Source: a virus (lineage: Duplodnaviria > Heunggongvirae > Uroviricota > Caudoviricetes). Taken from it: a stretch of DNA of 52,420 nt. Made by a program: the position numbers. Location: IMG/VR virus record IMGVR_UViG_2698536477_000003. The stretch is one strand, 5' to 3'. This document shows, one piece after another, positions 3,001 through 6,000 of the stretch (the stretch's first letter is position 1; each line of letters begins with the position of its first letter).

Positions 3001-6000
3001 GCCAGGGCGTTGTGCCGTTCGCCATCGAAAGGCATGTCCATTTTGGGGTCGAATCCGATGGAACGCCCAAGCGTAACGATCGTGCGTACATCGTGGTCAT
3101 TCCAGTATGCCCACGGGCAGATTTGTCCTGCTCGCTCATAAGCTCCACGTAAAATTACGTTGTCGAAGGTGGCCCCGTTACCCCAGACTTTTAAATATTT
3201 TGTATTGTCTGCATGCTGATTAATGAAATGGCTCAGTTCAGAGAGTGCATCGCTGATCGACAAAGTATCATCAATACAGATTGCAGCTCGTGCTTCAGGG
3301 CTCTGTTTCAACCACCACAGGATGGTATCGCCGTCAGGTGTGGCCCCTTGCTCCATAGCACTTTCCAGGCTGACAACCGTATAGAATTCTTGTCCGATGT
3401 CTCCGGTTTCTGGGGTGAAGAACACCGCGCCAATGGAAACGATTGGTGCATCCTTATTTTTCCCCATTACTTCACCTCCTGCGTTTCTTTGCTGCTGTGA
3501 ATTCGCCAGTTACCGACGCCTTCCCATTCAAACTGGCGGTTACTAATTCGCGTCCAGCCCCTGCCGAAAAGCAAATCCAGATACCAGTATTTTAAAGTTC
3601 TGATAATTGCTCTTACAGTTGGTTTGCATCCATAAGTCTTTGATGCGCAAATAAAGCACCGAGTTATGCTCATGGCCTCTACAAAAGGCCAGATAAACCA
3701 AACCCAGATGCAAAGAGCCACGAACAACATGAGCGCAATGTTAGCCACTAAGCCAGACCAGTACAGATAATTGCTCACTGGTTGCCTCCTTTACGGATCT
3801 GCGCTGCGATGCGCGAAAAAAAAGACTCCCGCGTATGACTGTTAAGAGCTGGCGCGAACGCCGCGTTAAGAACGGCAGCATCACAGCCGTCATCGATATA
3901 GAGCGCAATTTTTTTCTCCAGGCGCGCTTTGGCTTCCTGCAACTGCATACCCCGGCACGCACGCGGGATATACTCAGCAATTTGAGCGATAGATTTTTCG
4001 TTCTGTTTAAACATGCTTCACCTCGATAGGCTTGATGGTGTCGATCAGTAGTCGGCGGCGCGTATTTTCTGCAAAGTGGCGGCGTCCGGTTTCTTTGTGG
4101 TAAAACTCGTTTTTGCCGACGACCCACATCCGCTCTGTCTGGTGAAGTTTTTTTACCTGCGGGCCGTCTTTGGTGATCACAATGCCGGTATGGGTTTTTA
4201 CGATTGTCATGCCACCACCTCTTCGAATTTCAATTCCAATTGATCACCCCAGATTTCACATGACTCTGAACACGAGCCGGTATCGAATCGCCTGGCTTGC
4301 ACCATCGCCTGATACAAATTTCTGTAGTCGCTGTCGGCATACATTCTGGCAATCCCGTCAAGGCTCAGATGACCACGGTACATAACGTCTTTATTTGTCT
4401 TTCGGTGACCATCCCGGACGTGTTTACCTGTAACCAGCTCATTAAAAACTCGCATCAGACCAGGTTCGTCTTTACATGCAAGCCCCAGCTTTTGCGTGGA
4501 CTTTTTGATGCAGAAAACACAGTTCCCGAGGTGCTCCGGGATTTGCAAATCAAAAGGTTGTTTATGCCACCACCGGATAACATCCGACTTATCAAAATCA
4601 GATAGCTCGGCAAGATACCGGACGCCCGATTTCGGTTTCAGCCTACGAGGTTCGTCTGCACGAATACCCAGCCATGTGATGTAATTCCCTCGTCCGAAAT
4701 GGTCATCGCAGTATTTTGTGAAGGGGGTGAGTTTTAATCTGTCAGTGCAGAACGCGCCGCCGATGTATGGCGTGCCATATTTTTTTACCATGTCCATAAA
4801 CGGTTTAAGCACCGGCATTCGTGTCTGAATATCCTTTGGTTCCCATTCCGTATAACCATTTGGCTGCCCAAGCTCTGGATTTATATCGACCTGCAACACA
4901 GTTAGCGGTATGCCCCAGAACTTCACAACCTCCCGAATAAAGCGGTATGTCAGCGGATGTTCGCAACCGGTATCCATAAAGATGTAGCAGACGTTATTGC
5001 CAGCCTTTCTTTGTTCTTCCATCAGGTGAACAAGATATGCAGATGTTCTCCCGCCAGAAAAACTAACTACATGAGTTATGCACATTTGCGTAATTCCGAT
5101 AACTCGTTGAAGCGTTCCATAAACATCCCGTAGGCATGGCCCGGTGCCAGTGGAATCACGTTGAACATCTCTGTTGCCGGGATGCCTTCCAGTACAGGCC
5201 AGAAAGAGCCATCATCAAGCCCGAGATCACGGCGTTCGGTTGCCAGCATGATGAGATCGGCATATTTCACGGGCGTACTCATAACCTGGGGTAACCCGTA
5301 TTTCTCACGGATTACGGCGTCTATTTTTTCTTCCATCCGTTTATAGTCAGGAAGAAGGCGTTTCAGTGGCGCGGGGATGTCCTGGCAATACGCTTCTGTT
5401 GCATCATGCATTAACGCTTCAAAAGCAAATTCCTGCGGCACCAGCTGGCTGCAAAGCACCGCATGTTGGGCGACGCTGTAGAAGTGTGAAAGATGACCGG
5501 CAAAGCGACAGATATTTGAAAGGGAAACCGCGATATCGTTAATATCGATGTTGTCTTTATTTATCCTGTCATAATAAAAATGCTTCCCGGAAAAAGTTTT
5601 AATAAATGACATTTTGTTCTCCACGTTATATGCGCTGCACCGCGCTGAATTCGGGTAAAAGGAAGCCTTCACCATCCGGCGATTATTGAGTTAACTACGT
5701 TTCCATAAATGCCCCCGCAGGGGCATTTGCAGTAATGAAATCAGGCGGTGAAAGTACCAATAAAGGTTTCTACTTTGCTGTCTTTGAATTTCTCAACAAG
5801 CAGATCACGAAATTCGTTAGCCATTTCTTCCTGCACTGCTTCCAGCTGAATAATGCGCAGAACCAGTACAGGACGATCGCCAGTGATAATGCTGAGGCGT
5901 AATTTAAATGGACGTTCTTTCAGACCTTCAAACGGAACGCATTTAAATTCAAATGCCACTGGCATAATATCTTTGGTCTTCGCTTCGACAGACTCCATCA

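What the first reader, a model, noticed from the sequence alone, without database searches (positions are those of the whole stretch)
4207..5612. PAPS-reductase-like PP-loop ATPase and HD phosphohydrolase adjacent in the early-left operon
Two adjacent, overlapping minus-strand genes encode a PP-loop (SFSGGRTS) PAPS-reductase-family protein with C-terminal cysteine motifs and a YfbR-like HD-domain hydrolase, next to a predicted exonuclease and a YfdQ-like protein. PP-loop enzymes in phages take part in DNA or nucleotide modification pathways and HD hydrolases act on nucleotide pools, so the pair could modify DNA or nucleotides or counter host defences. Function is not evident from sequence.
Basis: partly seen in the sequence, partly recalled or inferred. 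Interest (0 to 1): 0.45.

Follow-up and report, generated by a model that had tools for sequence, protein, structure and literature searches.

The report
Lambda NinC homologue beside prophage yfdR
The two overlapping genes are well-known accessory genes of E. coli lambdoid prophages: yfdR, a nucleotide phosphatase that also binds DnaA, and a homologue of phage lambda NinC, a probable DNA-modification or anti-restriction enzyme; recombination placed them side by side, and they do not form a two-gene system.

Summary
Two intact minus-strand genes overlap by 10 nt in the early-left operon of an Stx2-converting E. coli prophage.

- **5076-5612** is yfdR. It is 97% identical to K-12 CPS-53 YfdR, an HD-domain 5'-deoxynucleotidase that binds DnaA.
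- **4207-5085** is a homologue of lambda NinC (79% identity). It is a PP-loop ATP-pyrophosphatase-type protein with an invariant SGGRxS loop and four to six invariant cysteines. It lacks the catalytic ECGLH motif of true PAPS reductases.

The pairing is not a conserved unit. DNA identity to K-12 stops at the yfdR stop codon, and similarity to lambda ninC starts 6 nt further on. The pair occurs in 281 E. coli genomes, whereas about 3,044 carry yfdR and about 535 carry the NinC-like gene. It is found in no deposited phage or plasmid record. Only 1 of 49 loci from other species has a YfdR homologue nearby.

The NinC domain is repeatedly fused to orphan DNA methyltransferases. It is also 55% identical to the PAPS domain of Vibrio phage 44E38.1 p0018, which is genetically linked to escape from Dnd restriction. 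A role in DNA modification or counter-defence is therefore plausible for NinC alone, but it remains unproven.

Overall this is ordinary, already-annotated material.

The parts
4207..5085 (-). Homologue of lambda NinC (292 aa): PP-loop ATP-pyrophosphatase fold of the PAPS-reductase superfamily, with conserved cysteines C113, C189, C192, C272 and C276 (C126 in most)
5076..5612 (-). yfdR: HD-domain 5'-deoxynucleotidase and DnaA-binding protein (178 aa)
   Evidence: 97% identity to K-12 YfdR b2361. PHROG 318. PDB 2gz4 at 1e-12. H50 and H69-D70 present. Literature: PMC4776307.
5072..5085 (-). Mosaic joint and translational-coupling overlap. The start ATG of the downstream gene sits inside the last codons of yfdR.
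   Evidence: 97.5% DNA identity to K-12 CPS-53 runs from 7012 to 5078. 75% DNA identity to lambda ninC runs from 5072 to 4253. In K-12 the same embedded ATG starts yfdS.
5741..6565 (-). yfdQ (DUF2303), the usual partner of yfdR
   Evidence: Pfam DUF2303 at 2e-92. 99% identical to K-12 YfdQ.
6631..6993 (-). yfdP
   Evidence: 99% identical to K-12 YfdP. RefSeq annotation.
4007..4210 (-). Small ORF (67 aa, PHROG 1226, unknown function) that often follows the NinC-like gene
3775..4014 (-). Small ORF (79 aa, PHROG 1344, unknown function)
3467..3778 (-). Small ORF (103 aa, PHROG 2531, unknown function)
2925..3467 (-). Rv2179c-like 3'-5' exonuclease
   Evidence: Pfam PF16473 at 4.5e-69.
2616..2915 (-). 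PrtN-family excisionase-like gene at the end of the leftward operon
   Evidence: Pfam PF11112 at 1.4e-22; PHROG 1300, excisionase.
12788..13474 (+). Context only: separate Dam-family (PF05869-type) DNA N6-adenine methyltransferase gene in the rightward operon. This is the same family that is fused to NinC-like domains elsewhere.
   Evidence: tblastn: 69% identity to the Dam domains of the L122 and L125 fusion proteins at 12851-13453. ORF coordinates.

Best explanation
The interval holds two intact, co-transcribed but functionally independent accessory genes of the early-left operon of an Stx2-converting lambdoid prophage. Modular recombination at a gene boundary placed them side by side.

(1) yfdR encodes an HD-domain phosphohydrolase. 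The literature describes it as a low-affinity 5'-(deoxy)nucleotidase that also binds DnaA domain I. With YfdQ and other neighbours it inhibits initiation at oriC when over-produced. In a phage this would damp host replication and/or adjust nucleotide pools early in infection. That phage role is inferred from the K-12 work.

(2) The second gene is a homologue of lambda NinC. It is a PP-loop enzyme that probably adenylates a substrate with ATP, given its intact SGGRxS loop. It probably carries a metal or Fe-S centre on C113, C189, C192 and C272/C276. It is not a true PAPS reductase, because the ECGLH catalytic tail is absent.

Its most likely job (inferred) is a DNA-directed modification or counter-restriction function related in chemistry to DndC and SspD. 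That function would protect phage DNA from phosphorothioate-dependent or other modification-dependent restriction. The gene works without a dedicated phage-encoded partner.
For: Gene identities:
- 97% to K-12 YfdR and 79% to lambda NinC.
- Published YfdR properties: PMC4776307.

Independence of the two genes:
- The DNA mosaic joint lies within 6 nt of the yfdR stop codon.
- In K-12 the same embedded ATG starts yfdS instead.
- The pair covers at least 80% of the query in 281 E. coli genomes, against 3,044 genomes matching the pair query (mostly through yfdR) and about 535 with the NinC-like gene.
- No record among 50,697 phages or 72,556 plasmids holds the pair, although each half is present separately.
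- 1 of 49 loci from other species has a YfdR homologue within 6 kb.
- No neighbour family occurs in more than 10 of 49 loci.
- In lambda, O276 and Oslo, NinC lies in the nin region of the rightward operon.

NinC-like enzyme features:
- Invariant PP-loop, C113, C189-x-x-C192 and C272/C276 down to 31% identity.
- Confident PP-loop fold. The nearest solved structures are LarE-[4Fe-4S], TilS, APS/PAPS reductases, NcsA and TtuA.
- The closest defence-system profile is SspD, then BrxP and DndC.

Link to DNA:
- Fusions NinC+Dam (L122, L129, L131, P0096) and C5-MTase+NinC+D12/Dam-MTase (L119, L125).
- A methyltransferase is fused or lies within about 3 kb in 17 of 49 loci.
- 55% identity to Vibrio phage 44E38.1/75E35.1 p0018. 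Transferring p0018 with p0019 gave escape from Dnd.
Against: - No biochemical activity has been shown for any NinC-family protein in the literature searched.
- In the Vibrio experiment two genes were moved together, and the protein also carries a Dam domain, so the PAPS-like domain was not isolated as the cause.
- Lambda ninC is dispensable in standard hosts.
- The metal or Fe-S site is inferred from conservation only, because the model coordinates could not be inspected.
- Within the closest E. coli relatives (93-100% identity), 63 of 79 loci do have yfdR directly upstream. A lineage-specific functional link therefore cannot be ruled out by comparative data alone.
- The authors themselves describe the YfdR phenotype as possibly an over-expression artefact.
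Confidence: 0.6

Rival explanations
1. One reading: the PP-loop enzyme and the HD hydrolase act together as a two-step pathway that modifies nucleotides or DNA. For example, the HD enzyme would clear canonical dNMPs while the PP-loop enzyme builds a modified one.
For: The genes overlap by 10 nt and are probably translationally coupled. They are adjacent in 63 of 79 closely related viral contigs and in 281 E. coli genomes.
Against: The adjacency is a mosaic joint. The pair is absent from all deposited phage and plasmid records. Only 1 of 49 loci from other species has both genes within 6 kb. Lambda, O276, Oslo, Stx2a phages and Vibrio phages carry NinC-like genes without YfdR. K-12 and most E. 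coli carry yfdR without NinC. The genes next to the Vibrio anti-Dnd gene are not HD proteins.
Confidence: 0.06
2. The NinC-like protein acts on RNA rather than DNA. It would be a tRNA thiolation or lysidine-type enzyme that retunes translation or protects tRNAs from anticodon nucleases.
Against: The repeated fusions are to DNA methyltransferases, not to RNA-binding domains. The nearest sequence profiles are SspD and PAPS_reduct. The one genetic precedent concerns a DNA restriction system.
Confidence: 0.12
3. The NinC-like protein is a non-catalytic mimic of DndC or SspD. It would bind and disable host phosphorothioation or restriction complexes.
For: N-terminal similarity to SspD, DndC and BrxP. 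The anti-Dnd precedent. No dedicated partner genes.
Against: Strict invariance of the PP-loop, D/T/G/E and R-x-D-E motifs and the cysteines down to 31% identity points to catalysis. The similarity to DndC and SspD is limited to the nucleotide-binding half.
Confidence: 0.1
4. It is a genuine PAPS/APS reductase, an auxiliary metabolic gene that boosts host sulfur assimilation. The database name and the PHROG category imply this.
For: Pfam PAPS_reduct above its cut-off. PHROG 424 label. The best Foldseek matches are CysH structures.
Against: Only profile positions 2-66 of 175 match. Sequence alignments to CysH structures cover only the first 100 or so residues. No ECGLH motif is present (sequence). 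The PP-loop is canonical, whereas it is degenerate in the aligned CysH chains (SSSFG). The C-terminal half is unmatched.
Confidence: 0.03
5. NinC is a recombination accessory factor, because in lambda it sits between ninB (orf) and ninG (rap).
For: Position in lambda, O276 and several other loci next to NinB and NinG homologues. Some records label homologues as NinC-like recombination protein.
Against: Here the gene is in the leftward operon with no NinB or NinG in the window. Most loci lack NinB and NinG nearby. A PP-loop fold has no precedent in recombination. From my own knowledge (Tarkowski et al. 2002, not checked here), the recombination phenotypes of the nin region map to orf and rap.
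Confidence: 0.04

Closest known systems
Phage lambda NinC (Orf290, NP_040635)
   Same: 79% identical over the full length, the same size, and the same PP-loop and cysteine motifs. Stx2a phages already annotate the 91%-identical gene as NinC.
   Different: It lies in the leftward early operon after yfdR, not in the nin region between ninB and ninD. The lambda-type start codon is lost, and an ATG inside the yfdR 3' end is used instead.
E. coli K-12 CPS-53 YfdR (b2361)
   Same: 97% identical. It has the same upstream genes yfdP and yfdQ at 99%.
   Different: The downstream partners yfdS and yfdT of K-12 are replaced by the NinC-like cassette. Here the gene is part of an apparently complete Stx2 prophage rather than a cryptic remnant.
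Vibrio phage 44E38.1/75E35.1 p0018 (PAPS-domain plus Dam fusion, anti-Dnd; Piel et al., bioRxiv 10.1101/2021.05.05.442762)
   Same: 55% identity over 283 aa of the PAPS-like domain, and all invariant residues are shared.
   Different: No fused Dam domain here; a Dam-family gene lies about 8 kb away in the other operon. The host is E. coli. No phenotype has been tested.
DndC / SspD / BrxP (PP-loop sulfur-transfer subunits of DNA phosphorothioation systems)
   Same: N-terminal PP-loop domain similarity: SspD 1.5e-15, BrxP 1.2e-4, DndC 9e-4. Conserved cysteines suggest a metal or Fe-S site.
   Different: The similarity is confined to the nucleotide-binding half. No DndA/D/E or SspA/B/C partners lie nearby. 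The gene is stand-alone and phage-borne.
CysH PAPS/APS reductase
   Different: It lacks the ECGLH catalytic tail, has a canonical SGGxxS loop, and has a different C-terminal half.

Membership tests
YfdR / YfbR-like HD-domain 5'-deoxynucleotidases | HD-domain metal-binding residues (H...HD...D) | tested here: met
   H50 and H69-D70 are present. Aligns to the HD protein Atu1052 (2gz4) at 1e-12. The Pfam YfbR-like score of 24.4 bits is just under the 25.9 cut-off.
YfdR / YfbR-like HD-domain 5'-deoxynucleotidases | Orthology to the characterised E. coli YfdR | tested here: met
   97% identity over all 178 aa; conserved yfdP-yfdQ-yfdR block at 97.5% DNA identity.
YfdR / YfbR-like HD-domain 5'-deoxynucleotidases | dNMP phosphatase activity and DnaA binding | not testable with these tools
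   Known only from the literature on the K-12 protein (PMC4776307).
Lambda NinC family (PHROG 424) | Full-length similarity to lambda NinC | tested here: met
   79% identity over 290 of 292 aa. PHROG 424 at 1.9e-93.
Lambda NinC family (PHROG 424) | Location in the nin region between ninB and ninD | tested here: not met
   Located in the leftward operon after yfdR. No NinB, NinD or NinG homologue is in the window. Position is not essential to protein-family membership.
PAPS/APS reductase (CysH, PF01507) | Match to the whole catalytic domain | tested here: inconclusive
   Above the Pfam cut-off, but only profile positions 2-66 of 175 are matched. PDB sequence alignments stop at about residue 100.
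PAPS/APS reductase (CysH, PF01507) | C-terminal catalytic cysteine in an ECGLH motif | tested here: not met
   No ECGLH in the sequence. The C-terminus carries the conserved CSESCE instead.
DndC / SspD phosphorothioation subunits | Full-length profile match | tested here: not met
   SspD profile positions 2-125 of 277 only. DndC scores 16 bits over positions 26-159 of 468.
DndC / SspD phosphorothioation subunits | Operon partners (DndA/IscS, DndD, DndE or SspA, SspB, SspC) | tested here: not met
   None in the annotated neighbourhood. No conserved neighbour in 49 loci.
DndC / SspD phosphorothioation subunits | Phosphorothioate installed in DNA | not testable with these tools
   Needs LC-MS/MS or iodine cleavage of phage DNA.
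Phage PAPS-Dam anti-Dnd protein (Vibrio phage 44E38.1 p0018) | Homologous PAPS-like domain | tested here: met
   55% identity over 283 aa. P0096 is among the hits.
Phage PAPS-Dam anti-Dnd protein (Vibrio phage 44E38.1 p0018) | C-terminal fused Dam methyltransferase | tested here: not met
   The protein ends at residue 292 with no methyltransferase domain. A separate Dam-family gene lies at 12788-13474.
Phage PAPS-Dam anti-Dnd protein (Vibrio phage 44E38.1 p0018) | Confers escape from Dnd restriction | not testable with these tools
   Needs plating assays.

The most novel reading that the evidence does not exclude
Proteins of the lambda NinC family would be stand-alone, cysteine/Fe-S-dependent PP-loop enzymes that phages use on their own DNA. 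They would either install a sulfur-containing or other ATP-dependent mark, or hijack host phosphorothioation, and so evade Dnd, Ssp or BREX type 4 restriction. This would finally give lambda NinC a function and define a widespread counter-defence family: about 5,000 homologous 90%-identity clusters, about 10% of complete E. coli genomes, Stx phages and phage-plasmids. The yfdR adjacency would remain incidental.
Probability: 0.35. Interest if true: 0.65.

Novelty: already known. Interest (0 to 1): 0.27.

Why it matters
For this window it matters little. Both genes are already annotated in RefSeq (yfdR; PAPS reductase family protein, called NinC in Stx2a phage records), and their adjacency is a recombination accident.

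The wider point concerns NinC. It is one of the last lambda genes without a function. Three things make an anti-restriction or DNA-modification role directly testable in lambda and in Stx phages: the repeated fusion of its domain to orphan DNA methyltransferases, the conserved PP-loop and cysteines, and the single genetic link to escape from Dnd.

Because the gene rides on Stx2-converting prophages, such a role could influence which E. coli strains these phages can lysogenise.

Tried and rejected
- **K-12 YfdS as a NinC remnant.** No similarity.
- **A second NinC or nin-region genes in the window.** None found.
- **YfdS or YfdT homologues in the window.** None found.
- **The gene co-transferred with the Vibrio anti-Dnd gene (p0019) as an HD hydrolase, which would have revived the pair idea.** It is a DUF6475 protein with no similarity to YfdR.
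- **The 147-aa protein that replaces YfdR in Ss-VASD.** No Pfam family.
- **Any conserved neighbour of NinC-like genes across species.** None occurs in more than 10 of 49 loci, and those ten are close Xenorhabdus/Photorhabdus relatives.
- **Profile search of the PDB for a full-length relative.** Only the N-terminal 100 or so residues align.
- **Fold searches.** They did not place the C-terminal half in a known fold.
- **AFDB50 fold search.** Not available.
- **Zimmerman 2008 (PMC2504004).** Not held, so YfdR enzymology is cited second-hand from PMC4776307.
- **Literature searches for a NinC function.** Nothing beyond Piel et al. and speculative mentions.
- **Cysteine geometry in the AF2 model.** Could not be inspected, because coordinates are not exposed.
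- **Whether host genomes that carry the gene also carry dnd or ssp.** Could not be tested, because no dndC query sequence was at hand and there is no protein mode for the E. coli collection.
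Full report
**What is in the window.** The window is an E. coli lambdoid prophage. Its first 20 kb match E. coli 2014C-4135 and other STEC chromosomes at about 97-98% identity. The 1,469 nt of the finding match 2014C-4135 at 100%. The window carries stx2A (18406-19365) and stx2B (19377-19646), so this is an Stx2-converting prophage. It lies next to a dusA fragment near zur and lexA. To the left of a cI-like repressor (7716-8408, -) and a divergent cro-like gene (8506-8766, +) runs a tightly packed minus-strand operon. Its order is yfdP, yfdQ, the HD gene, the PP-loop gene, three small ORFs, a 3'-5' exonuclease and a PrtN-type excisionase.

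**Check of the observation.** Both genes are real and intact. The HD gene is best read as 5076-5612 (178 aa). Its ATG follows a GGAG by 7 nt, and RefSeq uses the same start. The PP-loop gene is 4207-5085 (292 aa). The two overlap by 10 nt. SFSGGRTS is at residues 8-15. The C-terminal motifs GNCVFC (C189, C192) and CSESC (C272, C276) are present. Together with C113 they are conserved in 49 homologues down to 31% identity. yfdQ is directly upstream. The exonuclease is 740 nt downstream.

**The HD gene.** It is yfdR. It is 97% identical over its whole length to K-12 CPS-53 YfdR, and yfdP and yfdQ are 99% identical to the K-12 genes. According to Noguchi and Katayama 2016 (PMC4776307), YfdR is a structural homologue of the 5'-deoxynucleotidase YfbR with much lower nucleotide affinities. 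That paper cites Zimmerman 2008 for this, which I could not read. Purified YfdR binds DnaA through Phe46 and competes moderately with DiaA and DnaB. Multicopy yfdQ-yfdR plus yfdS or yfdT inhibits initiation at oriC. The authors caution that this may be an over-expression effect. They suggest a role in shutting down host replication in the ancestral phage. Homologues occur in 324 deposited phage genomes from many hosts.

**The PP-loop gene.**
- It is a lambda NinC homologue, 79% identical over 290 aa.
- The 91%-identical gene of Stx2a phages is already annotated NinC.
- The family is large: 5,045 database clusters at E <= 1e-5.
- The C-terminal half has no solved relative.
- It is unlikely to be a real PAPS reductase. 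Pfam matches only positions 2-66 of 175. The ECGLH catalytic tail is absent. The PP-loop is canonical, whereas the aligned CysH chains have a degenerate one.
- Among defence-system profiles the best is SspD (1.5e-15, N-terminal half only), then BrxP and DndC.
- The invariant SGGRxS, T39, E42, K118, G140-x-R-x-D-E145, G187-N-C-x-x-C192 and K195, and the near-invariant C272-x-E-S-C-E277, argue for an active enzyme with a cysteine-ligated metal or Fe-S site. That site is inferred from conservation, not shown.

**Is the pair a unit?** No, for six reasons.
- DNA identity to K-12 (97.5%) runs from 7012 to 5078, which is up to the yfdR stop codon. Similarity to lambda ninC (75% nt) runs from 5072 to 4253.
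- The start ATG of the downstream gene lies inside the last codons of yfdR. In K-12 the same ATG starts yfdS. This is a typical lambdoid gene-boundary joint.
- In complete E. coli genomes the pair query hits 3,044 genomes, but only 281 hold both halves. The NinC-like gene alone is in about 535 genomes, with 74 places on plasmids.
- No record among 50,697 phage genomes or 72,556 plasmids holds the pair, although each half is found separately.
- Among 79 near-identical viral contigs, 63 have yfdR upstream and 16 do not. Ss-VASD, for example, has an unrelated 147-aa gene in that position.
- Among 49 loci from other species (after removing contigs that are lambda itself), one has a YfdR homologue within 6 kb, and no neighbour family recurs in more than 10 loci. 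In lambda, O276 and Oslo, NinC is in the nin region.

**What NinC-like proteins probably do.** The strongest clue is domain fusion.
- NinC-like domains are fused to a C-terminal Dam (PF05869) methyltransferase in Erwiniaceae, Providencia and Vibrio phages.
- In Mixta and Sodalis prophages they are sandwiched between a C5-cytosine methyltransferase and a D12 or Dam adenine methyltransferase, in proteins of 1,031-1,099 aa.
- A methyltransferase is fused or lies within about 3 kb in 17 of 49 loci.
- This prophage has a separate Dam-family gene at 12788-13474.
- One of the fusion proteins, Vibrio phage 44E38.1 p0018, is 55% identical to the window protein across the NinC domain. It is the protein that Piel et al. 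moved, together with the adjacent p0019, into a sensitive phage. That phage then plated on a Dnd-carrying Vibrio.
- Later papers repeat this as evidence that phage PAPS reductases may counter phosphorothioate systems. I found no biochemical work.
- Lambda ninC is dispensable in laboratory hosts once polarity on Q is compensated.

I therefore favour a DNA-directed, ATP-dependent modification or counter-restriction role, at roughly 40% confidence. Three rivals remain open: an RNA-directed activity, a decoy role and a true PAPS reductase activity.

**Comparison and verdict.** Both genes are already known and annotated. The HD gene has published biochemistry. The PP-loop gene belongs to the long-known but functionally unassigned NinC family. 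The pairing itself carries no evident biological meaning. Interest for this window is low. The residual interest lies in the NinC family as a whole.

Noticed in passing
window 18406-19646 (+), with tRNAs at 18058-18306 and STnc100 at 19721-19933: The window is an Stx2-converting prophage. Intact stx2A (319 aa) and stx2B (89 aa) are preceded by three tRNA genes and followed by an Rfam STnc100 sRNA match.
   Followed up: partly
window 9667-9855 and 10527-10714 (+), inside ORFs 9307-10476 and 10473-11315: There is a tandem duplication of an isrK sRNA plus C4 antisense RNA module (Rfam, each above gathering score). Each copy lies within one of two consecutive Rha-family or antirepressor-like genes that share repeated N-terminal segments. 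This looks like a duplicated P1/P7-type c4-ant immunity cassette.
   Followed up: no
window 1523-2011 (+) and 2034-2582 (+): At the left prophage end, next to a dusA fragment, a Panacea-domain protein (RefSeq annotation) is followed by a 182-aa protein with an acidic N-terminus and a hydrophobic C-terminus. This may be a toxin-antitoxin or defence cargo. No integrase gene lies between it and the attachment-side dusA fragment.
   Followed up: no
window 5708-5733 (-), between yfdQ and yfdR: A perfect GC-rich hairpin (AATGCCCC-TGCG-GGGGCATT) sits in the 128-nt gap between yfdQ and yfdR. It lacks a clear T-run. It could be an attenuator or processing site within the antiterminated operon.
   Followed up: no
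L119 4402-7701 (Mixta tenebrionis) and L125 4438-7533 (Sodalis sp. RH21): These are giant single ORFs of 1,099 and 1,031 aa. Each combines a C5-cytosine methyltransferase, a NinC-like PP-loop domain and a D12 or Dam adenine methyltransferase. They look like polyvalent DNA-modification proteins in prophages.
   Followed up: partly
Hits H140, H141 and H163-H174 (E. coli and Salmonella plasmids of about 78-117 kb, mostly non-mobilizable): NinC-like genes of 90-92% identity sit on plasmids of about 93 kb that are predicted non-mobilizable. These are probably phage-plasmids. The genes lack yfdR and are often next to ead/Ea22-like genes.
   Followed up: no
L087-L097, L101 (for example Pseudomonas sp. 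30_B, Oceanobacillus profundus, Shewanella canadensis, Neobacillus notoginsengisoli): Many unrelated genome assemblies contain low-coverage contigs of about 48.5 kb or shorter with NinB, NinD and NinG 100% identical to lambda. This is almost certainly lambda DNA contamination of the assemblies, not real prophages.
   Followed up: partly
L003 5450-5893 (Shigella phage Ss-VASD) and 16 IMG/VR loci: In Stx2a-type phages the slot between yfdQ and the NinC-like gene holds an unrelated 147-aa protein with no Pfam family instead of yfdR. This shows that the slot is a swap site for accessory genes.
   Followed up: partly
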